From Tubulanus polymorphus (lineage: Eukaryota > Animalia > Nemertea): 64,000 nt of DNA. Location: positions 16,127,653 to 16,191,652 of the forward strand of contig NC_134028.1 of assembly GCF_964204645.1 (NCBI RefSeq), written 5' to 3'. The position numbers were made by a program, and so were the translations under genes. Below, in pieces: positions 16,611-43,126 of the stretch; position 1 is the stretch's first letter, and every line of letters starts with the position of its first letter. The notes under the pieces are model-generated. The model had not been told where the DNA came from, ran no database searches, and worked only from the letters and a program-made list of their open reading frames with translations.

Positions 16611-16637
16611 GCCGTAAATCATGTTACACAAGCAAGA

Positions 16638-24120: not shown

Positions 24121-24267
24121 CGTCTTCTTAGAATCTAGTTAAAGCTTGTTATTATAAAAAAGTTAAGATGTCAAACAATTCGTCAATCGTTTTATTAGCA
24201 AATAAACGCATTAATGAACGTTTGTCAATATAAAGAAGAAGTTTGGTTCAATTGATCTATCTCGACA
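24121..24267 (+). repeat. 3' part of the 5' LTR of BEL/Pao element 2
   Basis: Near-identical to ~47954-48097 (cgtcttcttagaatctag...ctatctcgaca). Confidence 0.9.
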
Positions 24268-24271
24268 TAAT

Positions 24272-24619
24272 AGTAATAGGGATAATAGGCTTTCAGGCCA
24301 AAGGTCGAACGGTCGAGCTCGTAAAAATGAAAAACATGAAAATAATTACAATTTCTACTTGAATTACTCGCGAAACTCATAAAAATGAAAAATAAATTCT
24401 CACTCGAATTTATTTTTCATTTTTATGAGTTTCGCGAGTAATTCAAGTAGAAATTGTAATTATTTTCATGTTTTTCATTTTTTACTCACCCGCCCGTTCA
24501 ACCTTTAACCTGAAAGCCTATTATCCCTATTACTCTTAAAATAATCATGTATATGAATACCATTTAAATTGACAGATTATTCAATATAAAAGTGTAAGCT
24601 CTTATAGAATAGATATATA
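24272..24619 (+). repeat. Left TIR; 24272-24534 is a fold-back palindrome
   Basis: Reverse complement of 41245-41594; agtaatagggataataggctttcagg...cctgaaagcctattatccctattact, with loop tcactc near 24400. Confidence 0.95.
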
Positions 24620-24624
24620 AATAG

Positions 24625-25238
24625 TTATTTTATAAATATATATTCATATGGAAATTGTAGTCTCAGTAATAATTTTGAACCTTTATTATTCTTTAATTTA
24701 TTCATATATTCATCATGTAATTCAGTAGGTATAATTTGATTTTCTTCCAATGATTGTTGCATAGATTTTCTATCTTTGTTATAAAATAAAACTAGAAATC
24801 TTATATTCTCCCTAAAGTCTTTAACAATTGAATTATATTTTTGATTTAAAACCCATGTTGTTATCCCAAAATGTCTTCCAGAGAAAGCTAGATAACATAA
24901 CTCACTTTCTCTAACTTTTGAATCATGTAAATTTGGGCAATCATCTATAATGAATAATGTATTTGATCCTTTATAAGTATCAATTGCTATTTTTATACAA
25001 TTATCTAAATTTTCTATTACTGTTTTACAGGATCTAATATAATAAACTTTTTTATCTTAACTATATCTCTATTATATGTTTTATTCATTTCATAAGTAGG
25101 ACAAAATAATATTATATTATCAAAATGATTCTTATAAATAGTTTCTAACAAATCTAATATGAAATGTGTTTTACCACAATTGGTTACACCAGTAACTAAC
25201 ATATTATGCGGTTCAAATATAAATAAATCTTTATTCAT
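24625..25238 (-). pseudogene. Genome-packaging ATPase (A32/FtsK-like), frameshifted near 25017
   Basis: Walker A GVTNCGKT; Walker B LFIIDDC; LAFSGRHFGITTWVLNQ in the downstream frame. Confidence 0.88.
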
Positions 25239-26326
25239 TTATTCTTTTAATTTTACTAGATAAAATCCATTCATTAGATTTATCATCATATCCTTTATAT
25301 TTCACCAAAGAATACTTTTTTCCTTTAAGAGTTTTTGTTTTCAATACTTTTTCTATTTTGTATTCTATTTCATCTGGGTTTGGTACAAGTGATAATTCTT
25401 GTTCATAGAAATAACCTAATATTTCTTCATCTTTTATATCTTCTAATTTATAAACAAATGGTTTAGTTAATATTATCTTTTTAATCTTAAATATTTCTTC
25501 TGTAAAATTTGGGGTATAACCTTTATAAAATGTTTTTCTATATTTAGATATTCTTACATGTTGCCCTATTTTAAATTTAGGTTCACCGAAATCATGTGTA
25601 ACAAACGCGCCATATAAATTAGGCCCTATTCCAAACTATTCCCGAATTATCTTCTTTTCTAGCTTGTATAGGTTTCATATTTATAGAACTATGTTTAGAA
25701 TTATTATAACCTTTCACTAAATCATCTAACACATCGATATATTTATATGTTTCATTAGCAGTAAAATATTTCCACATTCTAGTTTTCAATGTTTTATTAA
25801 ATCTTTCTATAATAGATGCTTTTTTATCTGAATGTGTTGAAAAATATATACATCGTTATCAGATAAGTTTTTTTAAATGTTTGTTATAAAATTCCTTACC
25901 TTCATCAAATTGTATCTTATCTGGAATAGCTTCTTTAAATATAGATTTAAAAGCATTTGTCACTTCTATTCCAGTTTTATTTTTTATTGGAATTGACCAT
26001 GCGTATCTACTGAATATGTCTATAACATTCAGTATCCAGAGATATCCTTTGTTGTATTCCTCTAAGTTCTTCATGTCAATTAAATCAGCTTGCCATTGTT
26101 GATCGATATATGAAACCATAACTTTTCTTGTTAAATAAGTTTTATCCATTTTCTTGTGGATTTGATATGTTGGTTGATTTTGTAACCATGATTTTAATTC
26201 ACTATATTTTATACCACCATTTTCATTATCAGATTTAATTTTATTCCATAATTCTGAAACGTTAGAATATGATACTTCACTTTCTGGGTTGTAATATAAA
26301 TCTCTTAAATATTGTTCTTTTTTCAT
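25231..26326 (-). pseudogene. Retroviral-type (rve) integrase with C-terminal chromodomain, frameshifted
   Basis: QQWQADLIDM, VIDIFSRYAW, QFDEGKEF, ASIIERFNKTLK, KGYTPNFTEEIF, and chromodomain-like LVKYKGYDDKSNEWI. Confidence 0.92.
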
Positions 26327-26332
26327 CTTATT

Positions 26333-26731
26333 TTAATCCATTAATAATAATTTAGATTTAGTTTCAATGGCTTTATGATTTGACTTATTTTCTGGTATAA
26401 TAGGTTTATTGTCTGTACACGGATAACTAAGTTTCCGATTATCATTGGAATCATCTTTATCATCAGATTTGAATTTTGATTTATATATTACACCGGATAA
26501 TATAATAACTGTTACTAATCCAATTGTAATATATAATTTATAATTACTTCCAGCATTAGAAGAATCAGATGGATTATTATTCGAATCAATATCAGATAAA
26601 GTCTGTGATTCATTTATATCAGTTAATTTCTTTTTCTTAGCTTTTTTTAATTCTGAAGATCTTTTACCTAATTCTCTTGCCCATTTAATTTGTTTCTCGG
26701 ATCTAGCCTGTTTCTTAACGCCATCACTCAT
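26333..26731 (-). CDS. Viral hypothetical protein, basic N-terminus and single TM helix
   Basis: 132-aa ORF; hydrophobic LYITIGLVTVIILSGVIY; TAAATG start. Confidence 0.6.
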   Translation of the reverse strand: MSDGVKKQARSEKQIKWARELGKRSSELKKAKKKKLTDINESQTLSDIDSNNNPSDSSNAGSNYKLYITIGLVTVIILSGVIYKSKFKSDDKDDSNDNRKLSYPCTDNKPIIPENKSNHKAIETKSKLLLMD

Positions 26732-27326
26732 TTATTTTAGTTAATTTTTGTTCTGATTCATTTTCTGTTTCGACGTTTGGTTGTAGTACATCTGTTTCGT
26801 TCTTGCCTGATTTATATTCCATAGGCTTGATGTTCGAAAATGTTATGACGCCAGTAGAAATTAATGTCATAACCGATCCTAATTGAAATGAAGCATAACC
26901 AACCCATTTTTGTAATTCAGTCATAACTAAATAGTCATTTTTCAAATCACTATATAATTTATTTTCATCATCAATTGGTATTAACTGGTTACATAACTTA
27001 GAATAACATTTGACAATACCATCTGAAATAGAAGCATTTATTCTAGCTAATCTTGCTTCTTCATAAATCTTAAAATATTTTATTACTTTATCGGGTTTCA
27101 TAGCATCTAATTCTTGAAAAGTAATTATTTTCCCGATAAACTGATTACATTTCCCGCCAGCAATTAATAATTCTAGATGGTGTTTACAATATAAATAGTA
27201 TTCATAATCAATATTGTTATTAACTTGAATAGAATTAGAAACAACTGTATCTTTATTATCACTTATTCCCAAATCATCTAATGTCTTTTCAATATCGGCA
27301 TTATTCTTACTCGATTTCTTTGACAT
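26724..27326 (-). CDS. Viral hypothetical protein (200 aa)
   Basis: Intact ORF in the codirectional gene array; TAAATG start; C-terminal hydrophobic stretch. Confidence 0.65.
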   Translation of the reverse strand: MSKKSSKNNADIEKTLDDLGISDNKDTVVSNSIQVNNNIDYEYYLYCKHHLELLIAGGKCNQFIGKIITFQELDAMKPDKVIKYFKIYEEARLARINASISDGIVKCYSKLCNQLIPIDDENKLYSDLKNDYLVMTELQKWVGYASFQLGSVMTLISTGVITFSNIKPMEYKSGKNETDVLQPNVETENESEQKLTKINE

Positions 27327-28474
27327 TTATATAGGATAAAAATAGCAAGAAAAATATTATAAGTATTCTGATACTAGATAGTTAAAGTTAAAGAATTCTA
27401 GTATTGACTACTGATACTAGCTATTTGAATTTAAAGAATTTCTATTTGAATCTATTCAAAATATAAAGTATTCTCTTTTGAAAAGAAAGTATTAAAAATA
27501 TAATAGAATTCACTAGCTAGTTGAAGTTATTGTTTTTTATTATATTTTATTTAAATTAGGATTTAGATTATCTCACTACTATTGTTTATCTATAGGAGCA
27601 GTAATTATAACTGTCCAGATAAGCCATTTCGGATTCTCGATAAATAAATCCTAAAACTGAAAATAAATTCAAAGAAACGACTGGTGGAAATACTATTTCA
27701 TAAACACACATATATTTTATTCTACAATCATTATCGATTTCCACATTCCTCACCGGGCGTTTGAGGCCCGGCAAGTTATGCGTGGAATGCAGGAATCAAT
27801 AAAATACAATACAACATCTGTCACTGTGTGTCATTAACAACAGCTTAATGACGCAATTGACATTCCGACAAACGTAATGCATTGGAAGCCTATACAGTAT
27901 GGCTAAACTGCTACATGTCTCATGAGTTGAAATATCCATTATTTCTGATTCCACATCCATCTATCTTCACTTTCTTGATTCAATGGCCTTCATTTTGTTA
28001 TCTAAAAGATAAATATCTAGCGTAGAATAAAACTAACTTGAAGTTGTAGTTGTAAAATATTAATTACAACACTTAAACATGACCATTTGTGACGCATCTT
28101 ACCAGGATAAGTTTTACATGTTTAACGTTTCCCGGCGCTTAATAACAACAAAAACAGTACTTACATTTATAACTGTAAACTCCTAAAATTGTGTTTATAG
28201 AGAGAATATCCTATACGTTCCTATGCTTATGTGCTGCGCGCTTATAACTGTCAGTTATTCACTAGCTAAACACTGTCTGAGCAACATATGTTCCTTCCTT
28301 TGTAATATAATTGATTAATCCTTTTCAACTGAAATAGCACATTCGATCAATATTCAAATGAGATACACCCTATTCAACTGAATATAACGTGCGACAGATG
28401 CTTTTGTAAACAACCTAATACAATTACATACAGGCGGTTTGACATAGATCGAGAGTAACCGGTTTTCTAAGCGT

Positions 28475-29128
28475 TTAACATTCAACGTATTTTTCATTAT
28501 GTGTTGAATTCCATAATTCAACAAATGTCTTTGCTTTATCCAGTTGATCTAAATATAACTGTATATCTAGTTTGTTAGATTTAATTATATTTTCTTTCTT
28601 TTCAAGAGGTCTTAAATTTCTCCAGTTCCAGATTAGCTTCTTATTATAATCATCGCTCATGTCAAATTTAGAAATCGGCAACACATGATCAATATGAAAG
28701 TATTCACCATAATTATCTATATTCATTTTATCATCGAATTGATATATTATCCATGATTTGAGAAATTCATCTGTACAACCCAATAAATTAGATAGTGTTT
28801 CTGAATGTGTTTCTTTGTTGAATAATTGTGTTAATCTAGATCTTAAGCATTGTTTCAATCTAAAATTAAGATCTGTTTGATATCTTCCTCTCATATATTC
28901 TGCCATATAATAATTATAATGTTCTATATTATCTTCTCGGTATTGTTTGGTATATAGTTTAAAACAAGTTTTACAGCAATATTGAAAACCATCTTTGCTA
29001 ATCTTACGCTTACTAAATTCTGTTAAAGCTAATTTATCTAATTCACATTTAGAACACTTCTTGTAGTATATATTTATAACACCAGTGTTATTTGTAATAT
29101 TTATAGTTTGTGGTTGTTCTGGTTCCAT
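28475..29128 (-). CDS. HNH-type endonuclease with N-terminal Cys4 zinc ribbon (NCLDV-like)
   Basis: KKCSKC...KDGFQYCCKTC; HIDHVLPISKFD...NWRNLRPL..KENIIKSNK. Confidence 0.75.
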   Translation of the reverse strand: MEPEQPQTINITNNTGVINIYYKKCSKCELDKLALTEFSKRKISKDGFQYCCKTCFKLYTKQYREDNIEHYNYYMAEYMRGRYQTDLNFRLKQCLRSRLTQLFNKETHSETLSNLLGCTDEFLKSWIIYQFDDKMNIDNYGEYFHIDHVLPISKFDMSDDYNKKLIWNWRNLRPLEKKENIIKSNKLDIQLYLDQLDKAKTFVELWNSTHNEKYVEC

Positions 29129-29661
29129 TTATTATACATATTTTTTTACTGAAATTGATTTTAGAAGTTATTCATTTATATGTTATTCATGAATATATAT
29201 GAATTATTTCAATAAAAGTTTATTAACACTTTTAATGTTTAAAAATCTAACTCATACAAATATAAATATTGAAATATGTTTAAAATATACCTATGTATTG
29301 GATACCCTATTAGATACCATATTAGATACCCTAATACCTGATACCCTATTAGATACCTTAAATACTTAAAACCCCCTTTTTTAATATAAATATTATTTAT
29401 ACAATTTTCAACCAATTTATTTTTATTTTTTCAACTAATATATGAATAAGTTTGAAAATAATAAAGGTTATCTATTATTACTGAGGTTTCAATATAAATT
29501 TAAAAAAGAAATATAATTTAAGGTATTTTCAAATAATACGTATTAGATATGTATTAAATATGTATTAAATACGTATTAGATACGTAATACTAATATATTA
29601 ATATTAATACTTAAAACCCCCTTTTTTATTTACTATTATTTTATACAATTTTCAACCTTTA

Positions 29662-30568
29662 TTACTTTTTGAGTGTTAGATAATTACTTTCTGAATCACT
29701 TTCATCATCACTCTCCAATTCACTATCAGACCCTAACAATTTATTCAAATTCTCTACCGAATTTTCTTCTTCAAATTCTCTATTACTTTTATACTTATTT
29801 TTCACCTTTTTTACCGAATCATCAATAGTTGTTTCATTGTTATGCTTATTCATCCAATCAAATTTATCATTATTTTCTACTTTATGTTTCATAGAATCTT
29901 TATTAGTGTTTGCTCCTAATATTTCATTTACAGTGTTTGATCCTAATATTTTATTAGCATCGGTTAAATCTAATTCATCTTTATTAGGTGTTGCTAATAA
30001 AAAAATCTTCATATAATTCTTTACCATTTACTTTTTTATTTGAAACAAATTTTGTAACATATCTAAATGGGTGTTCTATAAATTCTCTTAAACCAACGCG
30101 TTCTATAACATTAGTAATATGTGCATTTGTATTCATATGTTTATTCCAATTTGATGGAGCGTTTGAAAATTCACCTTTACAATAATCACAATAATTTCTA
30201 TTTTCACTAACATTTAATATTATTGCATTATTATATGTAGAAGGTATTACATTATTAGATGTAGTAGGTATTACATTATTTGATGTAGAGGGTATTACAT
30301 TATTAGATGTAGTAGGTATTACTTTATAAGATGTAGTAGGTATTACATTATTAGATGTAGAAGGTATTACATTATTATCAATTACATTACTTAAATTATC
30401 AACAACTTCACTTTTATTATTATATATTTCTATTAGTTTAGTTTTATAAATTTTGAAAATAGGATCAAATATCAAAGCTATATTACAAGGTATTACATAA
30501 TATAAAACATCATTATTTTCATGTGTATCGATATATGGAATATGTTTATATACTTTACCTCCTTCCAT
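29662..30568 (-). CDS. Hypothetical protein(s) with VIP(S/T)TSNN repeats, C2H2-like finger and acidic tail; two overlapping ORFs, possibly one frameshifted gene
   Basis: ORFs 29984-30568 and 29662-30027; 24-bp coding repeat; YCDYC...KHMNTNAH. Confidence 0.5.
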
Positions 30569-30600
30569 TTATTATATATATTTTTATAAAAGTTAAAATT

Positions 30601-31857
30601 TTAATACATAACACTATCTAATTGTGAATTAACAATATTTAATTGTGCGTCAGATATAATATAAATGTGCATTTTGAAATTTAGACTTCCTTTTTTCTTT
30701 GTCATGAATAATTGTATTCCATCTTTAGTGTTTTGTAATTTTTTTCCAGAACCATGTAATGAATTATCCTCTGTTGTTCTAAAATCTAACCATAATGCAT
30801 ATTTATTACCGGTATAATAATCAATTTGATTAACATTACAATTTTCAGATGATTTCACTTTTTCATTCATAAAATGTTTTCTAATTTCTGGCCATTGATC
30901 TATCATTCTCATTCCTTGACAAAATATTTTATTTGCTATTCCTTCGATAGTTATTTCTACTTTTGTTATTTCAGGATTATAATACTTATCAACCTGTATT
31001 GCACCATTAGAATATGTTGCACTGGTAAAAAATATTAATATACCTTTAATAGATCTTCTTGGGAAGTTAAAATTCTCATTAATTATTTCATCATTTGCAT
31101 TAATAGTTACAGTTTTAAATTTATCAATATAATCATATAAATGAAAATATATATGAAAATCCTTGATTGTATTTAGTTTGAATTATACTTGAAATATTTT
31201 CATCAGTTACTGTATCATATTCTAAACATATATTCGATAATTTATAACTCATATCTTTAACAACGCTAGATATTACAATTTCATTAACAGGAGCAAATGT
31301 TATTTCGAATATAACGTCTTCTTGAATTGCGTATTTATATAAAGGCGCATTATCATTTATCAATTCAAAGTCTAATGGAATTTTATATTTGCTTCCATAA
31401 ATCTTTTTATCAAATTATCTGCGGTACGAGTTACTATTGCGTCATTAGCTTCTGATCTTAATTTATTTTGGTTTTCTGATTGGATTCCTTGAAATATCAT
31501 ATTATTTCTATTTTCTTTAGTTAACCATAAATCTTTATAATGCATAAATAAATTATAATCATCTAATGAGAAAACTGTTTCTGGACCAATCTTTATTGTT
31601 AACTTTTTAATCAAATATCTTCCAACATTATCGACAACATAATTATTATTATTACCGAGTACTTTTATATCGGCTGATAAATAAATACTATTTGGAACAT
31701 AAAAAGTATTTTGTGTTAATCGAGGGATTCTAACATATAAAGTTTCATCAGGATTAATATTAGAAGGGTTATGAGTAATTATATGATGTGATCTTTCTGC
31801 TTTAATAGCATTAGATATTCTATGATTCTTAGAAGGATTGATGTAACTCCCACTCAT
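30601..31857 (-). pseudogene. Major capsid protein (double jelly-roll type), frameshifted
   Basis: Three fragments totalling ~1.25 kb, rich in beta-strand pattern (ITHNPSNINPDETLYVRIPRL; LSNICLEYDTV; KYALWLDFRTTEDNSLHGSG), resembling Polinton-like MCPs from recall. Needs structure prediction. Confidence 0.65.
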
Positions 31858-31878
31858 TTATTTAACAAAAAAAATTAA

Positions 31879-33594
31879 TTATTTATTTTTTATCATGTTT
31901 ACTAGCCCAAAAATAATTGCACTTACAACTGTAATTAAAAATAAAATAATATGTTCAGCAGCAAAGTTAATAATGTTTCCTGCAGATTTCAATATAAAAC
32001 CAACAATTGATGCAATAACTCCTGGTAATGCTGCAGCAGATTTTTTAGATAGTTCCCATAAATATTTTGCTAATTTCTTTAAACCATCCTTAACTTTATC
32101 TTGTATAGAATTATTATCATTCGGGGGTTTATCTGGTTTATTGGGAGTAGGAGTAGATTTTAAAGCATTTGATATTGCTAAACCTATTGTTGTGAATACC
32201 ATAGTAACAGCTGTTAGAATTGAAAGAATTGTGATTCCTTCTAATTTAAATAACAATCTTATTCTATCTTTCAATGATATTTTAGAATTTGGTTTTATCA
32301 ACAAATCTTTAAAAATAACTTTTAATTTTTTAATATGATTAAGATCATATGATTTTAATAATGTATCTCTTTCTTCTTTTTGTAATTCTATGTTATATTC
32401 TAAATCATCTATTTTTTTTACTAAAGCTAATTTTCTGCTTTCATAATCAGCTTCCTCTATTACTTGAAGATTTTTATTTAATTCTAATTGTCTTAATTCT
32501 TCATTTGCATTAGCTAATTCTTTTTCTAACATGGTTATTTTAGAAAATCTCATCTTAATATTAGCAATTTCACCAGCTGATATTTGTACACCTTTAATTT
32601 CTCTACGTGCTTTTTCAGGTAATATTTGTAATTGTTCTTCAGTTAAATCAAGTAATCCTTTTTCTAGTAAAGATTGTATTCGATTTATTCCAGTTTCAGA
32701 ACCAGATGTATCTGATATACTATTCATCTCTTCTTCTGAATCTCTTAAACTATCAATTTGTTTTTCTAATGTTAATTGTAATTGACTTGCACCATTAACA
32801 ATTGGTTGAGTGTCTCTTCTCGATGTTTCTGGTGTTGAAGTTCTTAATTTATCTAATCGATTTGCAAAATCTTCATCAGTTTCTGGATCAACATCAGTAG
32901 GATTTGGATTTGGATTTTTAAATGGTGAATATTTGTTAATATCAATATTAGGAATTGGTTCTTCTTTATTTATTCTGTCGAGTGCATTCCATATAATTCT
33001 GAGAAATTCTCTACCACCTTTTGAACCTTCAATTGTAGATAATGCTCGCATTCCAGGTTCAAATATATTTTCTTGACCCATTCTAGATAATTGAATTGAT
33101 ACAGTATTCCTATTTAATTCAAGATTATAATACCATGAATCATTTTTAAATTCTAAATTATTCGTGAAATATGGGTCATCTTTAAAAATTTGTTCTACAA
33201 CATCTTCAGTATCAATTTCATCTATTACAACTTTTGGTAATAATTCGTTAACAATTGTATCTGTTACTCTAGATTTCATTTTATATAATTCCATATGTTT
33301 ATCAGGATATTTTTCTTGTTGTTCTACTAATAGTTCCATAAATTCTTTTCTTTCTGTTCTAGTTGAAATTCTACCACTTTCAGGAGCTTGTAAATATTTA
33401 ATTAATTTTTCACGTAATTCGGAATTAATTCCATCATAATCATCATCATAATCATCATCTTCACCTAAATTAGTATTATATTCTGTTTTATTATCATTAC
33501 TAAAACTTGTTTCACTAAAATCAGGTGGTTGTTCATCACTTATACCAGGTTCATCTAAAGGATCCATTGGAATATCTTCTCCACCTTCTGCCAT
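31879..33594 (-). CDS. 571-aa acidic/coiled-coil protein with C-terminal TM segments
   Basis: Intact ORF; heptad region; hydrophobic GITILSILTAVTMVFTTIGL and IILFLITVVSAIIFGLV. Confidence 0.75.
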   Translation of the reverse strand: MAEGGEDIPMDPLDEPGISDEQPPDFSETSFSNDNKTEYNTNLGEDDDYDDDYDGINSELREKLIKYLQAPESGRISTRTERKEFMELLVEQQEKYPDKHMELYKMKSRVTDTIVNELLPKVVIDEIDTEDVVEQIFKDDPYFTNNLEFKNDSWYYNLELNRNTVSIQLSRMGQENIFEPGMRALSTIEGSKGGREFLRIIWNALDRINKEEPIPNIDINKYSPFKNPNPNPTDVDPETDEDFANRLDKLRTSTPETSRRDTQPIVNGASQLQLTLEKQIDSLRDSEEEMNSISDTSGSETGINRIQSLLEKGLLDLTEEQLQILPEKARREIKGVQISAGEIANIKMRFSKITMLEKELANANEELRQLELNKNLQVIEEADYESRKLALVKKIDDLEYNIELQKEERDTLLKSYDLNHIKKLKVIFKDLLIKPNSKISLKDRIRLLFKLEGITILSILTAVTMVFTTIGLAISNALKSTPTPNKPDKPPNDNNSIQDKVKDGLKKLAKYLWELSKKSAAALPGVIASIVGFILKSAGNIINFAAEHIILFLITVVSAIIFGLVNMIKNK

Positions 33595-33613
33595 TTACAT
33601 AATAAAAAATTAA

Positions 33614-34943
33614 TTAAAATTTAAAATATAATATTCCTCCGATTACAATTCCTATACAAGTTATAGCTAATTTAGCATTTTCATGGGATTTATTATCATT
33701 ATCAGTTTTAATTATATCATGTTGAATAATATCAGTTTTAATATATTCTGATGTATTGTAATCTTTTATTTTAGAATCATTATTTAAGTTAATATTATTA
33801 GTTTTAGTTTCAGTTGATTGAATATGTTTTTTATTTTTTTCACCTTCCATTAATTTTGGAGCAGTGAAAATCTTTTTATTTATATCATTTAATCCAAATG
33901 AATTATTTATTGTTGCAGTTTTAATTAGATTATTATATTATTAGATTATTGTTTCCCATCTTTAATACTAAATCATTAGAAATAATAAATAGATTAGGGC
34001 CTATACAATAATTTAATCTAATATGTGATTTATCTAGATAATTTTGATATCTTACAATGTTTTCTGGAATCGATCTATTTTTATCATTATGAATGGAATC
34101 TTCAAATAATACTTTGAATTGTTTCTGCGCATCGAATGAAGTGTTATCATTTCCAATTATTGGGGATCTTGTTTCAACTTGCGCACCTAAAATACATATC
34201 AAATAAGTTCTAATAGATTGCTTTATTCTTTGTATTCCAGCTTTAGTAAAACCTTCACTATTTTCTAAAATGAAATTAACCCAACCATTATTGTTTTGTT
34301 GTTGTATATTATTATAATATTTTGGTAATTCATTCCAATTTAGTGTTCTTATATCTGAATTTGTGATTATTTTTCCAAATTCTTTAGTATATAATATTCC
34401 TAATCCACCCATTGTTCCAATTTTTGCTCTAAAATCTTTATTTGAATTAATATTAAATTCATTAGATATTTTATAAAACTTAGAAAAATTAATATTATTA
34501 TTCAATTCTTTAAAATATTTTGAACCTGGTAAAGGACATTCTAATTCATCTAATATTAATTTTATTTGAAAATAAGTACGAAATCTAAAAAGTGATAACA
34601 TCAATGGTAAACTTGGTTTGTTTAAATGATCATTCCAACTAATTCCACATCCTGTTGTCGCGCAATAAACAGCAAAATTTAATTGGTTCTGCCAATACTT
34701 CATATTAGATTTTAATAACCATTGTTTTGCCTCATTTAAATTTTTGAAATTAATTGTATACACATGAAATATATTTTCCATCTTTACATGAAAATTATTA
34801 CTTTCAGTAACATAAATATATAAATTAATTAATGAATTTAAAACTTCATTTCTATATGTAATATCTTTATTAAAATCTATTGCTGGAATATTATATTTAA
34901 TTGATTTATTATATTGGAAAGCTTTTGGAAAACTATCTGCCAT
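33614..34943 (-). CDS. Viral hypothetical protein (336-aa ORF; probable frameshifted C-terminal extension 33614-33850 ending in a TM helix)
   Basis: YWQNQLNFAVYCATTGCGIS; GFTKAGIQRI; ILGAQVETRS. The downstream ORF lacks its own TAAATG. Confidence 0.6.
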
Positions 34944-34959
34944 TTATATAACTAAAAAA

Positions 34960-35394
34960 TTAATAATTTATTAATTCTTTTAATAATTTATCTTGTTCTT
35001 CAACTGTTATATGGCCATTTAAACTTATTATATAATCTAGTGTATTCTTTAATATATTAATTTCTTTTATATTAGTTTTAATTTTTTCTTTATTACTTTT
35101 TATATTTAATTTTGAACTTATACCAGTTAAAACACTTGATGATAATCCTAACACACCAATTGATATAGCTAAAGGTGTTAATGGACTGAATATTGCTAGA
35201 AATGTTATTACAGAACTAATTGTAACCGAACCGCTGATAATAAGATAATATATAATTTTACTTTTTAAATATTTTTTCTTTTTTATCTTTAAGTCACTTT
35301 CAAATTCTAATATTTGTTTTTCTAAATATATTTTTAATTTAGTTTTATTTATATCATGAGGAATAATATCAATATTATCAACTTTATCTTCCAT
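34960..35394 (-). CDS. Two-TM coiled-coil viral protein
   Basis: 144 aa with a central hydrophobic hairpin; TAAATG start. Confidence 0.65.
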   Translation of the reverse strand: MEDKVDNIDIIPHDINKTKLKIYLEKQILEFESDLKIKKKKYLKSKIIYYLIISGSVTISSVITFLAIFSPLTPLAISIGVLGLSSSVLTGISSKLNIKSNKEKIKTNIKEINILKNTLDYIISLNGHITVEEQDKLLKELINY

Positions 35395-35414
35395 TTATTT
35401 AGAAAAAAAAATTA

Positions 35415-35837
35415 CTAATTAGTAAACTTATAAGCAACAAATATAACAATAACTGTTCCACCTAAAATCCAAATTATTTCATATTTCTGTTGTTCTTTAC
35501 TTGGGGTATAATAATCTGATAATTTAGGTTTGTATAGATGTAATTTTTCTTTATTGGTTACCGCGATATATAAACTCATTGCATCATCAACTGATTGAAA
35601 ATCTCTATGTGAAATCTTCTGATCATATAATTCCTTGTTAATATAATCCGTATAGTTTTGTCTTTTTTCTCTATATTCTTCTGCTGCTTTATTATATTTT
35701 TCTAATGCTAAGTTATGTCTTTTTTGTTCTGTTAATGAACCATTTTTATCAATATGCTTAAATAAATAACCACCACCAGTAAATGCTGAAGCGTTAACAA
35801 TTGCCGATCCTATAATAGTTATAACTGCAGAAGCCAT
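35415..35837 (-). CDS. Viral membrane-associated hypothetical protein
   Basis: MASAVITIIGSAIVNASAFTGGGYLF, EQKRHNLALEK, C-terminal TM segment. Confidence 0.65.
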   Translation of the reverse strand: MASAVITIIGSAIVNASAFTGGGYLFKHIDKNGSLTEQKRHNLALEKYNKAAEEYREKRQNYTDYINKELYDQKISHRDFQSVDDAMSLYIAVTNKEKLHLYKPKLSDYYTPSKEQQKYEIIWILGGTVIVIFVAYKFTN

Positions 35838-35861
35838 TTATTTAGTAAAATAATTATGTAT

Positions 35862-36083
35862 TTATATGGGAGGAATATATTTTTGTTTTTCCAAATAATC
35901 AATAGTTAAATTAGATAAAGTAACTGCTAATGTTTATTTTAAAATATCATTTATATCAAATCTATCAACATTAACACTTCCCATTTTAAATACTTTTTTT
36001 AATACCATTGAATAACCAACGGTTCCAACTGATAGTAAGGCTTCATTATATAATCCAGTTATTATCCACTTATTATCACTCAT
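35862..36083 (-). pseudogene. Small hydrophobic viral protein, disrupted (not in ORF track)
   Basis: TAAATG start, then LYNEALLSVGTVGYSMVLKKVFKM...TIDYLEKQKYIPP across stops/frameshift. Confidence 0.45.
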
Positions 36084-36439
36084 TTATTTATCAAAAAAAT
36101 TACTATCATCAAAATATTTAGTTAACTTATTTATGATTAATTCAACATTTATTTCATTACTAGTTTCATTTGTATATATTTCAATTATTATTTTTTTAAT
36201 ATCATCGATGATAAAATCTTCATCTAATTCATAAAATCTTAAAGATTCTCTAATTAAATTAGTAATCTTTTCTACATTTAAAATTTCTTTATCTATTGTT
36301 TTTTCATACTCAAATGTTGTTTCATTAGAAAATGTAATATTTTTGATATGTGTAATTACATCATTAACGTTAAATTTCATTTCTTCTCATGTTTAAAATC
36401 AAACCCAAAACATATACTCGGTCCAACAGTTATATTCAT
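36084..36439 (-). CDS. Acidic hypothetical protein (true start probably ~36439, frameshifted)
   Basis: ORF 36084-36380 plus an upstream T-tract-TAAATG at 36439. Confidence 0.45.
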
Positions 36440-36456
36440 TTATATAGTGAAAAAAA

Positions 36457-37216
36457 TTACTCTCTACATCTTATAACTAATTCATAAATTACAGGAAAGT
36501 TATTCAAATCAATTAAATATCCATTGTGATTTCTTATTTCTAATCTAAAATTATTAAATTTAGGAATGCATGGTTTGAAATCACATTCTGTTAAATTATT
36601 ATTTATTTGTGTTCCAAATTGTTTAACATTTTTTAATGGTAAAATATTTAATATACTAGAATTACAAATTGTATCTTTAGTTGCTTCGAATGTTTTTGTA
36701 GGCTCGATTAAATTGCAATAAATATAAAAGTGTGTAAAAGGTATTATATTTGAATTACCATCTACGTTTCCTGTAACAGTATCTGGTGCAATTCCTAACA
36801 GTTTAGCTATAGGTTTTTTTTACCATAAATGCATGTTGACTTTCATCATATACCTTTATTTTAATTTTATTTGTGCTATCACTTTTTATAAATCTAATTA
36901 AAAATTTATCTTCTCTTCTAATTTTCAACCGTGCTCTTCGATTAATTTCTTGAGCTAATGTTTCTAAATTATATAATCCTGGTTTTAAAATTATATGAAA
37001 CCATTTATCTATATTTCCAATATGAGTTAAAAAAGTATTATCTTCAATAGTTTTATCCGTTATATTATAAAAAGAATTACATAAACTTATACTAACTAAT
37101 TTTAAATCTACACAATTTTTATATTCCCTATCTAATTGAACTAGTAAATTATGAGATTTATAATTTGTAAGTTTTCTAGAATCAACAAATATTCTGTATT
37201 CTTTTAATTCTACCAT
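36457..37216 (-). pseudogene. Minor capsid (penton-like) protein, frameshifted near 36803
   Basis: IFVDSR, LVSISLCNSFYNI, KPGLYNLETL, then IYCNLIEP...RLEIRNHNGYLIDLNN, the pattern of Polinton/virophage single jelly-roll pentons. Confidence 0.65.
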
Positions 37217-37233
37217 TTATTTTACATATTTTC

Positions 37234-37587
37234 TTATTCGAAATCTATTTCATGGTGCCCTTTTTCATTCTTACCTTTGTATACGAAATAGAAATCTCCA
37301 GAACATAATTCTTCTAAGTCTTCACTTGATAATCTATGAAATCTATCCGGTAAATATGTTCTGAATTTATATGTATTTCCTTTTAATCCTTCATATTCTA
37401 AGTGTATAACTAATTTATCTCCATAGTTATTAGTAACTGTATCAATATTTGTAATTAGATATTTCTTATGAATTGTTAATTCTGTTAACTTTTTGAATTT
37501 ATAATCTACAGATTTTACATTTGTTATATCTTTAATTCTATCTAGAAATAATTTGTTGTTCTCACTGTGTATTTGTTTACTCTCCAT
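37234..37587 (-). CDS. Small PolB-adjacent protein (possible OB-fold/SSB)
   Basis: FKKLTEL...YLI...TNNYGDKLVIHLE...YLPDRF; the function is an inference. Confidence 0.5.
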   Translation of the reverse strand: MESKQIHSENNKLFLDRIKDITNVKSVDYKFKKLTELTIHKKYLITNIDTVTNNYGDKLVIHLEYEGLKGNTYKFRTYLPDRFHRLSSEDLEELCSGDFYFVYKGKNEKGHHEIDFE

Positions 37588-37616
37588 TTATAATACATAT
37601 TTTTATTAAAATTTGA

Positions 37617-40600
37617 TTAACACGTTAGAATTCTTTTCATTATCTCGTTCTCTTTTGTTTCTTCTCTTTTAAATTTTAAGTATTCATCTAAATTACAACC
37701 ATAAGCAACTGTATGAATTCCATCATCTAAAATATATCTTTTATCATCAAATGGGTTTAGACTAATCTTTTCAATTTCTTCAATAAATATTTCATGATCT
37801 TCAGATCTTAAACATCTCATCTTATGTTTTCTAACTTCTTCATTGAATATACAATTGATGTAATCTTTGAAATGAATATTCTTTTCTACTACACTTTTGG
37901 TTATTCCTTTTAACTTTTTAGCTTCATGTTCTTTAGTTTTATATGAATACATTTTAGATCTAATACCTATGAACTCTATCATTTCTTCACCACCTAATTC
38001 ATCTTTGAATTTACCGGGAACTTTTTTATTATCATTGCTAAACAATTCATGATCTTTAGGATAATTACTGAAATCAAAATGATGTTTTAATGTTTTTAAA
38101 TCATCTGTTATGTTATCAGTTTTTATCTTTAATATGTAACTGTCGGTATCAAAATATAATATTTCTATATGTTTTTCTCCAAAAAGTGGTTGTAATACAT
38201 TATAATAGAATTCATACATTAGTAATTTTGATAATTCTAAAACTGAAGCGCCAACATAGATTGGTTTATTAAATTTCATTGATGTTCTTCTCATTTTAAC
38301 TGCAGCTAAATTTTCATCAAATAATCTGTTACCAATGAACTTAGGATATGATTGTAAATGTCTAATTCTTTTACCATTACTAACTAACTCAATATCATTT
38401 CTATTTCTAATATTTTCACAAGTCTTACCATAGAATGCATTATTCATTAACTTGAAGAAATCTTTCTCGAAATCAGTTTTAGCTTCAGTTCTCTGTTTGG
38501 TGTTAAAATCTATATATTTTTCTAACCACTTAGATTGGCTGAATGAAATATATCTATGTACTTTTTTTAGAATCATTCCTTGTTTTAGATAAAACTTTAA
38601 CATTCTATAATGTACTACATAATTATATTTATCTTCTTGAGTTACCATTAACTTTTCTGTATGAATATGATTTTCGGGTTTAATTCTTTTTTGATAATTT
38701 GATAATTCTTCATGAGTTACAGTTTTATGTTCGGGACAGTAAGCTAGATTTCTAGATTTAAATTTTTTATCATCAGGATATTCTAAATCTACAACAAAGA
38801 AGTAACCAGTATCTGAATCATCTGCAATATCTAGGATTCTTTTCTTCCAATCAAATTTATCATTATTTTCATGTTGTAAAACTTCAGTTAATTCAAATAC
38901 TCCATAAGGTTGTGGTTCCATCATTGCCCATCCATAAAGATTATTTGCATCTATATATAATAACTTATATCCAGGGTTATCATTTACATTGAAATATCTA
39001 TCCCCTCCTCCTCTTATAGATTTTTCAAATAATAATAATTGATCTATATTTGTTAACAAATCCACTTTTATATCTGTAAATTTTAATCCACAATCCCATG
39101 TTAAACATGGACTTGAATAACAATGACATGGATCAATATTAAAATATTTTAGGTTTACATCTCTAAACCTTTCGAATATATCGGTTAATAATAATACATC
39201 TGATTTTAGATATAAATCTACTAATTGTCCATGATTTTCTATTTTGAAATGATTCCAAATATTCAATGTTAGACTTAATTATAGACTTCATCTTTAACAT
39301 ATTCATTTTCCTTCATTCTTTACCTTCTTCTGTCATTATAATTTCTATATTTGTATTCAATAATTTACTAAATCTTATTTCATATTCAATTAATAAGTCA
39401 TAAAAATGATTGATAACATTTTCATTTCTGTAATGATAATATTCACTTTCAATTAGTTCTGGATAATCAGATTTTATATATAACCCGAAAGTTGCAGCTG
39501 ATTGATGAATCTTTTTAATAGTATTTGTTTTTGGTGGTTCATCTGAAAAATCATTTTCATTAGAATTTAATTTCTTTCTTTTATAATATATTTCTTTTCT
39601 ATCTTGATCAGTTTATTCTTTATTTAATGATTCAAAATCTCCATATATTACAAATGGAACTTTATTTTTGTAATCATATTTTTTGAATTCTAATATTTTA
39701 TCTTTTTCATTTGGTAAAACTAATTTACAATAATCATGATTTTCACATAATTGTTTATGATTTAATAATGTACTTTCATTACTGAATCTATGTAAACATT
39801 CTCTACATAGATATATTTTATTATGGTGATCACTTTCTGTTCTAAAGAATAAATCTATTTGTTTAATCCACATATAATGATTCTCATAATATAGTATATC
39901 TAAAACATCGTTTGAATCATAATCTTTTGATAGATATAAAGGTTCTAATGTATAATGTTTTATGTTGTTACCTTTTGTATTTGGTAATTTGATTAAATCA
40001 AATACATTTATCTTTATATTATTATCTCTTTCTATTTTTGGGATGTTTTTAATTATAACAGGATACTTATCTATCTTATAATTATTTTCAAATGGTTTAT
40101 AATGAGTTAATCTATAAGTATGTTTATTATAATCTTCAACTGGGTGTAAACAACTTATTATAGCCCATAGAAAACATTTATCATCTTCATTTTGTACATT
40201 TATTACAGCATTAGTTTTAAATGGTAGTTTAATATAACTCGATGCTTCAATATCTGGTTCTTTATAATATGATACAATATTTTCATGAATTGGTTTTGAT
40301 TTAGTTAACTTATTATATTTTGTGTTATAAACATGTAAAGTCATAAATATTATCTCATCAAATATTAAACCAGACCCTTCAAAATATTTCTCTTCTATTT
40401 TAGTTTTTACTTCATTATAACATTTATCTAATTTATCATCTATATGTTGTTTATATATAATATGTTGTGAATGAGAATTTATATTATATATTGGTTTATC
40501 TTCAGATTTTATAAACTTTACTTTAGAAGATATACTAATTTTAGGATATTCAACATCAGTTATTATTTTTATTATTTCTTTCATATTTTCTAAATGTTTT

Positions 40601-41096
40601 TTATTTTCTTCTAATGTTTTTCCTTTATGAAATTTAAACTCAATAGCTGCTGGCCCAACATCACTTTTAAATGCTTCGGTTATCTCTATATCTTTTTTAT
40701 TATCTAATGAATTAATATATATTTTCTTACATCTTCCATGTATTGTCTTTTATTGTTTAATTTATTTTTTATGCTTTTAATTGTCTTCTGTTCCTTATCA
40801 TTATCTTTATCAAAATAATCTTCACCTAAAATAACATAATTCATATTTCTAATATGACTTTTAGATTTTAAATGTTCATTATAATATCTTTTATCACTGA
40901 ATGATTGATTACATGTATCACATTTATATATTTCTTTTTCATTCTTTAATTCATCTAATTTAGTTTCTAATATATCATCTTTATATTCTAGTTTCAATTT
41001 ATTCTCTAAATGTGTTTTAGTTTTATTGTGTCTTGCTTTTTGGGATTTATCTATATTGATATTACATGTTGGACAGTAGTACTTATTTGCTTCCAT
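37617..41096 (-). pseudogene. polB: Protein-primed family B DNA polymerase with N-terminal C2H2 fingers; frameshifted and internally deleted
   Basis: Exo I YGDFES; Exo III-like YLKSDVLLL; motif A YIDANNLYGWAM; motif B KLMNNAFYGKT; motif C YFDTDS; KMY. Confidence 0.93.
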
Positions 41097-41244
41097 TTTA
41101 ATACTAAAATTTTTATTAAAATTGATTTTAGAAGTTCAATGATTTATATCATGTATTATTTCAATCACACTTTACTAACACTTTTAATGTTTAAAAATCT
41201 AACTCATACAAATATGAATATTGAAATAATGTTTAAAATATATC

Positions 41245-41594
41245 TATATATCTATTCTATAAGAGCTTACACTTTTATATTGAATAATCTGTCAATTTAA
41301 ATGTTATTCATATACATGATTATTTTAAGAGTAATGGGGATAATAGGCTTTCAGGTTAAAGGTTGAACGGGCGGGTGAGTAAAAAATGAAAAAAATGAAA
41401 ATAATTACAATTTCTACTTGAATTAGGAGTGAAACTCATAAAAATGAAAAATAAATTCGAGTGTGAGAATTTATTTTTCATTTTTATGAGTTTCGCGAGT
41501 AATTCAAGTAGAAATTGTAATTATTTTCATGTTTTTCATTTTTACGAGCTCGACCGTTCGACCTTTGGCCTGAAAGCCTATTATCCCTATTATT
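41245..41594 (-). repeat. Right TIR with terminal fold-back palindrome (~41330-41594)
   Basis: Reverse complement of the left TIR with a few mismatches. Confidence 0.95.
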
Positions 41595-43126
41595 CATAAT
41601 TGACGAATTCGGCTACAAAGTGAAAGTAAAGAAAAGAAACCAGTGAAAGATAAGATGCAGTCATTCGGTCTAGAAGTACTTGCGGAAGCAGCACAAATGA
41701 GAATAGATAAGCCAGAAGAAGCCCTCAGCTTAAGAAGTGGAGCCTCATCATGTCACTCCACGTCGTCTGCTTTCCTGAAAATGCGTATGCAGCTCGCAGC
41801 AAAGGCGGCGAGACATGAAACAGAGTTAAAATTCCTACGTTTTGAATCTGAAAAGAAATTTAAGAAACTCAAAGAAGAAGAGGAAATACGGCAGATGACG
41901 TTACGTAAGGAGCTTGCCTGTGCACAAGCCGAACTGAACGCCATAGAAACTGTCGTATCAGAGGGTCATCGTAGCCAGGCAAGATCGATCAAAAGCAGCG
42001 AGAAGGTACAGCAATGTCTTACATCGGACCATCAGCCGTTCGATTCATTAGAAAGGGAAGATAAGGCACTAGTAAAAACTCCTCTAGAGCCCCAGAGAGT
42101 AGAATTAAGAACTTTAGAACATACGAAAGACACACTCAGTAACTGTCAGAACTATCGATCATACGACGATCAAGTGCCTGATACAAGTCTGGAAAATGTC
42201 GTTAATTCGAAATTAACGCCTACAGCACCTACATTCACTCTGTTTGTAGATCACAGCCGTATAGAAAATATTAGCAATAATATCATCCCCGCCAAACAGA
42301 TTACTCCGGTAGCCATTACCTCCGAATTAAGTTCTGTTGTGCGGTATTTGAATCGACCCAACTCCGAAATAGCGAAGTTTGGAGGCGATCCGACCCAGGA
42401 AGTTCATCGGACAGTTTAACAGTAGGATCGTCAGCAATACGGAAGAACCAGAAGAACTGATAGGTTTCCTGGAACAGTACACTACAGGGGAACCGAACAA
42501 GATCGTTTCGGGATTCGCTCAGCTGGACGCGGTTCAAGGGTATAATGCTGCTATGACCGAATTGGAAGAAAGATACGGTAATGCCGAAGTAATCGCGACG
42601 GCGTACGTAAACAAGGCATTAAAGTGGCCACCAGTTAAAGCCGATAACCCAAAATCACTCGACGACTACTCCTTATTCCTAATGGAGTGTAATAACGCTA
42701 TCAAGGCCAACGCTAATGCCATCCGGCTACTCGAATTTCCAGAGAATATGAAACGTCTGGTTGGGAAGTTATCGTTCCATCTCCATGATAGATGGCGAAA
42801 CATAGTACTTACCAACAAGGAGAGGTCGCGACCTTCAACATTTGAGACACTGGTAGATTTTGTTAAAAGAGGGCTAAGAAAGCTATTGATCCTGTCTATG
42901 GTCGCGCTGCTCTCTCCCATATAGTACCAAGCTCGAGCGTGGACAAGAATAGACTAAGGAGACCGACTTTCCCAGCGGGCAGCACTCAGACATCCTCAGA
43001 TCAGAAGAAGAGAACCTGTTCCTTTTGTCAAAAACCAGGACATCAGATAGGATCCTGTTTTAAATTTGCAGACAAACCGCTAAATGAGAAGAGAGAGATT
43101 TTTCAAGCCAAAGGACTTTGTTTTGA

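What the first reader, a model, noticed from the sequence alone, without database searches (positions are those of the whole stretch)
24272..41594. Endogenous Polinton-like virus whose genes carry poxvirus-late-type TAAATG promoters: candidate virophage-like hyperparasite
Seen: on the minus strand the ATG is embedded in TAAATG at 25238, 26731, 27326, 29128, 30027, 30568, 31857, 33594, 34943, 35394, 35837, 36083, 36439, 37216 and 37587; integrase has TAAGATG and polB has TAAAATG. Structural-block genes also have a T-tract just upstream (ttttttttgttaaaTAAATG at 31857, ttttttttctaaaTAAATG at 35394, tttttttcactataTAAATG at 36439, ttttagttataTAAATG at 34943). Intergenic gaps are mostly under 35 nt and no introns are evident. 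Established: T-tract-spacer-TAAATG is the poxvirus late promoter/initiator, T at -3 is a poor Kozak context, and virophages share late promoters with their giant-virus hosts. Inference: the element is transcribed by the RNA polymerase of a co-infecting cytoplasmic pox-like virus rather than by host Pol II, i.e. an integrated animal provirophage that might act in antiviral defence.
Basis: partly seen in the sequence, partly recalled or inferred. Interest (0 to 1): 0.88.

Follow-up and report, generated by a model that had tools for sequence, protein, structure and literature searches.

The report
Polinton with poxvirus-style late promoters
A virus-like jumping element, inserted many times in what is likely an animal genome, begins nearly all its genes with the short signal that poxviruses use for their late genes, so it likely borrows the transcription machinery of a larger co-infecting virus that has not been identified; this particular copy is broken.

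Summary
24272-41594 is an integrated, multicopy Polinton-like element (6-bp target duplication, ~350-bp TIRs, pPolB, rve integrase, A32 ATPase, double-jelly-roll capsid; no adenain found). 14 of 16 mapped gene starts read TAAATG (shuffles: mean 1.2). Eight of 14 also have a T-run at -15..-12, where vaccinia late promoters have one. The same two-part signal marks close relatives (26/28 starts) and a distant GC 31-39% clade (88/95), including head-to-head genes. It is absent from other clades of the family (0/33, 0/99) and from five canonical Mavericks (0/48). AT-richness, stop-start coupling and poly(A) signals therefore do not explain it. Sister elements carry other motifs: T-run+TATA (asfarvirus-late-like, with a VLTF3-like gene) or TTGAA. 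Best reading: intact members are likely transcribed by a co-infecting cytoplasmic large DNA virus of poxvirus type. Limits: no helper, transcript or 5' end was found. TAAATG alone is not pox-specific, since an iridovirus contig has it at 11/25 starts, though mostly without the T-run. This copy is broken in most core genes, and antiviral defence is untested.

The parts
24266..24271 (.). Left target-site duplication (CATAAT)
   Evidence: identical 6-mer at 41595-41600
41595..41600 (.). Right target-site duplication
24272..24623 (.). Left terminal inverted repeat, begins AGT; holds a 77-bp perfect internal palindrome with a 6-nt loop
   Evidence: I1-I3; about 1500 reads break off at 24271/24272 into unlike flanks
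41241..41594 (.). Right terminal inverted repeat
   Evidence: I1, I2, I4
37617..41096 (-). [quoted passage not shown]
   Evidence: 42-45% identity in the C-terminal part to pPolB of L001/L046, the latter Pfam DNA_pol_B_2; breaks
37234..37587 (-). 117-aa ORF, no family assigned; A-rich class TAAATG
   Evidence: homolog in L006; no Pfam hit
36457..37216 (-). Probable minor capsid protein (inferred from size, conservation and position), frameshifted; A-rich class TAAATG
   Evidence: family of 36 ORFs in the loci; two pieces
36084..36439 (-). Small gene, broken; T-run TAAATG at 36439
   Evidence: N-terminus 79% identical to L006 protein
35860..36083 (-). Small hydrophobic protein gene with an internal stop; T-run TAAATG
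   Evidence: 75-aa homologs in L006, L007
35415..35837 (-). 140-aa protein with hydrophobic ends, whole; TAAATG
   Evidence: 76% to L006; 19 of 27 listed variants among copies at third codon positions
34960..35394 (-). 144-aa two-helix membrane protein (weak SLATT match); T-run TAAATG
33614..34943 (-). Conserved ~440-aa family marker protein with C-terminal hydrophobic helix, one frame break; T-run TAAATG
   Evidence: 312 homologs; confident model, no clear fold match
31879..33594 (-). 571-aa coiled-coil protein with C-terminal hydrophobic segments, whole; T-run TAAATG
   Evidence: family of 33 ORFs
30601..31857 (-). Major capsid protein, three pieces; T-run TAAATG
   Evidence: 71-75% to L006 MCP, whose model is a double jelly roll matching PBCV-1/SGIV capsids, E 1e-15
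29662..30568 (-). Orphan ORF(s) with 24-nt repeats and a zinc finger; A-rich class TAAATG at 30568; doubtful start at 30027
28475..29128 (-). 217-aa HNH-like endonuclease (label from recalled motif); A-rich class TAAATG, upstream region duplicates the polB upstream region
   Evidence: relatives at 40% in a 719-kb giant-virus contig (L084) and in L015; repeat D17
26724..27326 (-). 200-aa conserved protein, whole; T-run TAAATG
   Evidence: family of 30 ORFs
26333..26731 (-). 132-aa single-helix membrane protein; TAAATG inside the upstream gene's 3' end
25231..26326 (-). rve integrase with chromodomain, broken; start TAAGATG
   Evidence: Pfam rve and Chromo; breaks
24625..25238 (-). A32-type packaging ATPase, two pieces; TAAATG inside the integrase 3' end
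   Evidence: Pfam Pox_A32

Best explanation
This is a broken copy of a multicopy, integrated Polinton-like virus whose gene starts carry a two-part signal, a T-run 12-15 nt upstream and TAAAT overlapping the ATG, that likely serves as a late promoter for the RNA polymerase of a co-infecting cytoplasmic large DNA virus of poxvirus type. Shown: integration, many insertion sites, the motif, its geometry, its conservation in two clades and its absence from canonical Mavericks. Inferred: intact family members stay silent in chromosomes; on infection by the helper they would be excised or copied, enter the helper's cytoplasmic factory, be transcribed from these ~20-nt promoters (predicted leaderless mRNAs with slippage-made 5' poly(A)), replicate with their own pPolB and package with their own capsid and ATPase. 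A second, A-rich promoter class (37587, 37216, 30568, 29128) may be an intermediate-type class; this is untested. Whether the element harms the helper or protects the host is not addressed by any result.
For: 14/16 starts TAAATG vs 1.2 shuffled. Homology-supported starts: 26/28 in the window's clade and 88/95 in a distant GC 31-39% clade, against 0/33 in AT-rich and 0/99 in GC-rich clades of the same family, and 13/285 in 29 other pPolB elements, 0/48 in five canonical Maverick-type contigs. 62 motif starts are head-to-head, 66 tandem, and in 3 the TAA is the neighbour's stop. At least 3 T at -15..-12: window 8/14, L006 12/15, distant clade 32/41, against non-start TAAATG 1/23 and iridovirus-like starts 4/22; higher T there in 10 of 10 gene families of the distant clade. 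Vaccinia late promoters: conserved T ten nt upstream of TAAAT (= -13) and a 5-7 bp spacer (PMC11980589, PMC5294985; passages). No TATA-box excess at -45..-20 (1/16); AATAAA is not avoided in coding regions (obs/exp 1.02). Sister elements have other short motifs and a VLTF3-like gene, as EMALE types carry different promoter motifs for different helpers (PMC10945749). No variant among the 40 shown of 58 falls in three TAAATG sites across copies.
Against: No helper sequence, transcript or 5' end was found. TAAATG is not pox-specific: 22/93 starts in iridovirus-like loci, 11/25 in L236 including its capsid gene. Six of 14 window starts lack the T-run, and L003 has TAAATG at 7/7 starts with the run at only 2/7. 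The -15..-12 window was chosen after seeing the data; at the literature-defined position -13 the window has T in 9/14 against 9/23 at non-start sites. polB and integrase starts deviate from TAAATG. AATAAA is enriched near stops in the distant clade (22/75 vs 12.4 +/- 3.0 shuffled), though not in the window's clade (14/33 vs 13.9), which leaves room for host polyadenylation. Coding-sequence signatures (AATAAA, TTTTTNT, CpG) do not separate motif-positive from motif-negative groups cleanly. No poxvirus-derived gene was found in the window. No vaccinia DNA was analysed; the comparison rests on published consensus descriptions.
Confidence: 0.55

Rival explanations
1. Helper-dependent as above, but the helper is an invertebrate iridovirus or another non-pox large DNA virus whose late genes also start at TAAATG.
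For: Iridovirus-like loci start 22/93 genes at TAAATG; L236 (capsid E 3e-139 to the grouper iridovirus capsid, found by a protein query, not by the motif) 11/25. Iridovirid-like particles are reported from marine invertebrates and late transcription is probably viral (PMC5923455, passages). The window's starts have A at -4 in 13/14, like iridovirus starts (20/22).
Against: Iridovirus-like starts mostly lack the T-run (4/22 vs 8/14, 12/15, 32/41; Fisher p 0.03, 5e-4, 8e-6) and nearly always have AA at -5/-4 (20/22), which the distant clade lacks (7/41). The iridovirus sample is small, and two of its loci were selected by the motif.
Confidence: 0.17
2. The element is transcribed in the nucleus by host machinery. 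TAAATG with the T-run is a lineage-specific initiator or translation-start context that resembles the poxvirus signal by convergence in compact AT-rich genomes.
For: It carries an integrase with a chromodomain and has integrated many times, so its DNA reaches nuclei. AATAAA excess near stops in one positive clade. Expression of endogenous polintoviruses is reported in corals (bioRxiv 10.64898/2026.06.19.733378, passage).
Against: No TATA excess upstream; 20 AATAAA on the sense strand of four long window ORFs; promoter-sized gaps of <=32 nt, some promoters inside neighbouring genes; canonical Mavericks use A-rich starts without the motif; the motif persists at GC 38-44%.
Confidence: 0.2
3. The motif is a by-product of packing: upstream stop codons or AATAAA poly(A) signals abutting the next ATG in AT-rich DNA.
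For: True at 36083; AATAAA overlaps 25 of 66 tandem starts; GC is 24%.
Against: 62 motif starts are head-to-head with no upstream gene on that strand; TAA is the neighbour's stop in 3 of 128; AT-rich relatives lack it (0/33; L098, GC 22%, 1/10).
Confidence: 0.03

Closest known systems
Mavericks/Polintons (Polintoviricetes, 'adintoviruses'; PMC8502044)
   Same: pPolB, rve integrase with chromodomain, A32 ATPase, double-jelly-roll capsid, TIRs, 6-bp target duplication, 17 kb, multicopy integration.
   Different: No adenain protease or PLA2 gene found; the capsid does not hit Pfam DJR-like_dom, which canonical contigs do; many membrane-protein genes; TAAATG promoters absent from the canonical contigs tested.
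Entomopoxvirus-associated Polinton-like viruses (Barth et al. 2024, PMC11296320)
   Same: Small Polinton-type viruses proposed to parasitise poxviruses in animals.
   Different: Those were found in occlusion bodies, encode a cysteine protease, two of three lepidopteran ones use primase-helicase/tyrosine recombinase, and the paper's main text has no promoter analysis (0 hits for promoter, motif, transcription). Here there is promoter evidence but no helper.
Mavirus/EMALE provirophages with CroV, and Gezel-14T (PgVV) with PgV
   Same: Integrated or small dsDNA virus whose promoters match a giant-virus stage promoter; different EMALE types carry different motifs.
   Different: Protist hosts, Imitervirales helpers, virophage-type capsid and protease; dependence and protection were shown by experiment there and are only inferred here.
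Poxvirus late/intermediate promoters; yeast linear plasmids (pGKL) with TAAAN initiators (PMC6211774)
   Same: TAAAT initiator over the start codon, T-run upstream.
   Different: Poxviruses and pGKL plasmids encode their own RNA polymerase; none was detected here.

Membership tests
Maverick/Polinton | pPolB and rve integrase | tested here: met
   (both broken in this copy)
Maverick/Polinton | TIRs, AG start, 6-bp target-site duplication | tested here: met
   the right end reads ATT, one letter off the left end's mirror; the defining values are recalled
Maverick/Polinton | DJR major capsid and A32 ATPase | tested here: met
Group 1 Maverick / adintovirus | Adenain-type cysteine protease (and PLA2 in many) | tested here: not met
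   no Peptidase_C5 or PLA2 hit in window ORFs or the L006 ORFs scanned, whereas L093, L100, L105 give Peptidase_C5 hits; a very divergent protease among orphan ORFs is not excluded
Virophage (Virophaviricetes/Lavidaviridae) | Virophage-type MCP and protease | tested here: inconclusive
   capsid model matches PBCV-1/SGIV (TM 0.57-0.66) slightly better than mavirus/Sputnik (0.51-0.53); no tree against reference MCPs; no protease found
Virophage lifestyle (works like) | Promoters shared with a helper's stage promoter | tested here: inconclusive
   matches published poxvirus late consensus; helper unknown
Virophage lifestyle (works like) | Replication only with helper; reduces helper yield | not testable with these tools
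   needs infection experiments
Poxvirus late promoter | TAAAT overlapping the ATG | tested here: met
   14/16
Poxvirus late promoter | T-run about 10 nt upstream of TAAAT, 5-7 bp spacer | tested here: met
   8/14 window starts, 12/15 L006, 32/41 distant clade vs 1/23 non-start sites; not met at the four A-rich class starts
Poxvirus late promoter | Initiation in TAAAT with non-templated 5' poly(A) | not testable with these tools
   needs 5'-end data

The most novel reading that the evidence does not exclude
A large, protease-less family of animal Polinton-like viruses are provirophages that have rewired all their promoters, more than once, to match different cytoplasmic helpers: poxvirus-type (T-run+TAAATG), asfarvirus-type (T-run+TATA, with a captured VLTF3-like factor) and a TTGAA type. 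The promoter would then be a readable label for the helper, and it predicts undiscovered pox-like viruses in the invertebrate hosts that carry these elements, with an inducible antiviral role as in Cafeteria.
Probability: 0.35. Interest if true: 0.92.

Novelty: new variant of a known kind. Interest (0 to 1): 0.72.

Why it matters
[quoted passage not shown] A promoter code shared with poxviruses turns the question into direct tests: a 25-nt reporter assay in infected cells, 5'-end mapping, and a search for pox-type polymerase reads in the host. If true, germline-encoded virophages exist in animals, and their promoters point to helper viruses not yet found.

Tried and rejected
No whole genome is held. 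Sequencing runs: no RNA holder listed; the one run guessed to be RNA gave only 21-32-nt matches; neither is evidence on expression. Helper search: family marker and capsid alignments found nothing in viral contigs, and the ATPase alignment one distant contig, not followed up. The HNH-like gene's giant-virus relative L084 has TAA-ATG at 2/13 starts. The L006 nucleoside kinase has no named close viral relative. No RNA polymerase subunit was found in 22+33+25 proteins scanned by Pfam; several orphans stay unassigned, and the atlas did not answer for the window proteins or the L006 capsid. Marker protein: no fold match (best Z 4.7). CpG, TTTTTNT and splice-donor counts did not discriminate. Baculovirus-type DTAAG (5/16 vs 5.2), TATA box (1/16 vs 2.7) and early-like TGAAA (3/16 vs 2.3) are not enriched upstream; these motifs are recalled. 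Single origin of the motif: rejected on the marker tree (AU p 6e-10, 32 selected rows, quick tree) but not excluded on the capsid tree, so 'several origins' is not shown. Literature searches for a prior report listed none on TAAATG promoters in Polintons; subscription papers and bioRxiv supplements were not searchable, and no supplement was read.
Full report
THE ELEMENT. The stretch 24272-41594 (GC 24% in a 38% window) is bounded by ~350-bp terminal inverted repeats and a 6-bp duplication, CATAAT, on both sides. All genes lie on the minus strand: pPolB, a probable minor capsid gene, five small or membrane-type genes, a conserved 440-aa marker gene, a coiled-coil membrane protein, the major capsid gene, an orphan, an HNH-like nuclease, two more conserved genes, an rve/chromodomain integrase and an A32 ATPase. 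The capsid of the close relative L006 (71-75% identical) models as a double jelly roll. No adenain or RNA polymerase subunit was detected. This copy is broken in polB, both capsid genes, the marker gene, integrase, ATPase and two small genes. Reads from the same species cover the element at about 500x against about 27x in the right flank, and about 1500 reads leave the left end into unlike sequence: a family with many insertion sites. Among copies, 19 of 27 listed variants in one gene are at third codon positions, so the subfamilies diverged under selection. The host name is coded; BEL/Pao and LINE neighbours indicate an animal (my knowledge).

THE OBSERVATION. All 15 positions read TAAATG. 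Using a start definition blind to the motif, 13 of 20 ORFs >=60 aa have it against 25 of 356 other ATGs; most exceptions are fragments of broken genes. Of 16 mapped starts, 14 have it (shuffled mean 1.2); 30027 was left out as doubtful. Two upstream classes exist: a T-run at -15..-12 (31857, 33594, 34943, 35394, 35837, 36083, 36439, 27326) and an A-rich AAAAT-ATRTA class (37587, 37216, 30568, 29128), with 26731 and 25238 closer to the second.

RELATIVES. The marker gene fetched the best 80 of 140 metagenome loci. With homology-supported starts only, and five near-duplicates plus three unplaced loci left out, TAA-ATG occurs at 26/28 starts in the window's clade, 88/95 in a distant clade (GC 31-39%), 2/3 in L015, 1/5 in L010/L018/L038, 0/9 in the sister pair L008/L009, 0/8 in L012, 0/33 in other AT-rich members and 0/99 in the GC-rich clade; groups were drawn after seeing tree and motif. 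Among 29 other pPolB-bearing viral contigs it occurs at 13/285 starts, and at 0/48 in five contigs with canonical Maverick layout, three of them checked by Pfam for PLA2, DJR or adenain. The motif is therefore neither general in Polintons nor a result of AT content. It is as common at head-to-head starts (62) as at tandem ones (66), and only 3 TAAs are the neighbour's stop, which removes the stop-start and poly(A)-overlap explanations. The marker tree rejects one clade of motif-bearers (L008/L009 are sister to the window's clade at 99-100 support), but the capsid tree allows it, so the number of origins is open.

GEOMETRY. Both positive clades have a T peak at -15..-12; in the distant clade it holds in 10 of 10 gene families, in the window's clade 8 of 10, and it is not significant in negative groups. 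Reviews describe vaccinia late promoters as TAAAT(G) with a conserved T ten nt upstream and a T core 5-7 bp away (PMC11980589, PMC5294985; passages), and TAAAT is kept in salmon gill poxvirus (PMC4542343; passages). At least 3 T in -15..-12: 8/14 window starts, 12/15 L006, 32/41 distant clade, 1/23 non-start TAAATG.

A RIVAL HELPER. A motif scan of viral contigs brought up iridovirus-like records. A protein query then gave L236, an iridovirus by its capsid, with TAAATG at 11/25 starts; all such loci together 22/93. TAAATG alone therefore does not name a poxvirus. The T-run does discriminate (4/22; p 0.03 for the window, 8e-6 for the distant clade), on a small sample.

MOTIF-NEGATIVE RELATIVES ARE NOT PLAIN POL II ELEMENTS. 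L008/L009/L012 have T-run+TATA before 11 of 26 starts (0.5 shuffled; post hoc), resembling the ASFV late promoter TATTT...TATATA, and L009/L012 encode a VLTF3-like protein. The GC-rich clade has TTGAA near -37 (33/79 vs 5.4). This recalls EMALE types with different motifs for different helpers (PMC10945749; passages) and Gezel-14T's shared early promoter (bioRxiv 10.1101/2022.07.28.501842; passages).

RESULTS AGAINST OR NEUTRAL. No helper, transcript or 5' end was found. AATAAA is not depleted in positive coding regions (1.02, 0.97), but neither in the negative groups (0.89, 1.13); TTTTTNT is depleted in all; CpG differences are small and the host flank is not CpG-depleted. AATAAA is enriched near stops in the distant positive clade. 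An earlier AI note on another genome (e1-8580207) reports the same promoter pattern and a poxvirus polymerase subunit in some copies; it is a lead, not support, and I found no such subunit here.

MECHANISM. Most likely (0.55) intact members are silent when integrated and, on infection by a poxvirus-type cytoplasmic virus, are transcribed by its late machinery from these compact promoters, then replicate and package with their own genes. An iridovirus or other helper (0.17) and host nuclear transcription with a convergent motif (0.2) remain. Only the anatomy and the motif statistics are shown. Defence of the host is untested, and this copy is a relic.

KNOWN WORK. Poxvirus-associated PLVs are described from insect occlusion bodies, without promoter analysis in the main text (PMC11296320; abstract and passages). 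The adintovirus paper (PMC8502044), the coral polintovirus paper (PMC11131425) and a 2026 PLV framework (bioRxiv 10.64898/2026.06.19.733378) have no occurrence of 'promoter' (passages, plus one results part). The last mentions animal-derived ATPases outside the main Maverick groups; whether they are this family was not tested. Also read in passages: PMC11788076, PMC6211774, PMC5923455, bioRxiv 10.1101/2024.03.23.586382. No supplements were read.

VERDICT. A real, statistically strong and comparatively well-controlled promoter signature in a protease-less Polinton-like family. It works like a provirophage by inference; it is a member of the Polintons broadly but not of the canonical group 1. 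New variant of a known kind; interest 0.72.

Noticed in passing
L009, L012 (and L008), gene starts; L009:3242-3748, L012:3785-4279: These relatives lack TAAATG but have TTT-N8-12-TATA shortly before the ATG at 11 of 26 starts (shuffles 0.5; pattern chosen after inspection), like the asfarvirus late promoter (TATTT then TATATA), and L009/L012 encode a VLTF3-like protein (Pfam E 6e-4; atlas 0.89).
   Followed up: partly
GC-rich clade (L040, L046, L058, L066, L067, L070 and others): TTGAA upstream of 33 of 79 starts (5.4 expected), median -37, in 10 gene families; no AATAAA excess at gene ends (3/79). An unexplained third promoter type.
   Followed up: partly
L236, L120, L239: Iridovirus-like genomes start many genes, including the capsid gene, at AATAAATG (11/25, 4/8, 4/21); I found no such description in the passages read.
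   Followed up: partly
L003: A different Polinton lineage (protease-like domain fused to integrase, by recalled motif; GC 38%) has TAAATG at 7/7 starts, mostly without the T-run.
   Followed up: partly
window 24323-24482 and 41382-41543: Each TIR holds a 77-bp palindrome with repeated AAAATGAAAA, resembling the A-rich TG-interrupted poxvirus early promoter, but about 370 nt from the nearest start.
   Followed up: no
window 29140-29660 and 27330-28470: Two long non-coding stretches: the first duplicates the polB upstream region and repeats GGTTGAAAATTGTATAAA; the second is a probable insertion of other composition. Reads join 28542 to 41008, suggesting the HNH-like gene sits near the terminus in other copies.
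   Followed up: no
L006:10343-10981: A close, largely intact relative (14/15 TAAATG) carries a deoxynucleoside kinase; the same protein is on a 16.9-kb contig.
   Followed up: partly
L028:7768-11809: A member of the distant motif-positive clade has a different pPolB type from the window, showing module exchange.
   Followed up: no
window 33614-34943: The family marker protein folds confidently (pLDDT 84) with no clear structural match.
   Followed up: partly
window 20784-23040, 41604-47212, 14561-16631: The element sits among a broken LINE, BEL/Pao LTR elements and a 161-bp tandem array; host flanks show no CpG depletion (1.0).
   Followed up: no
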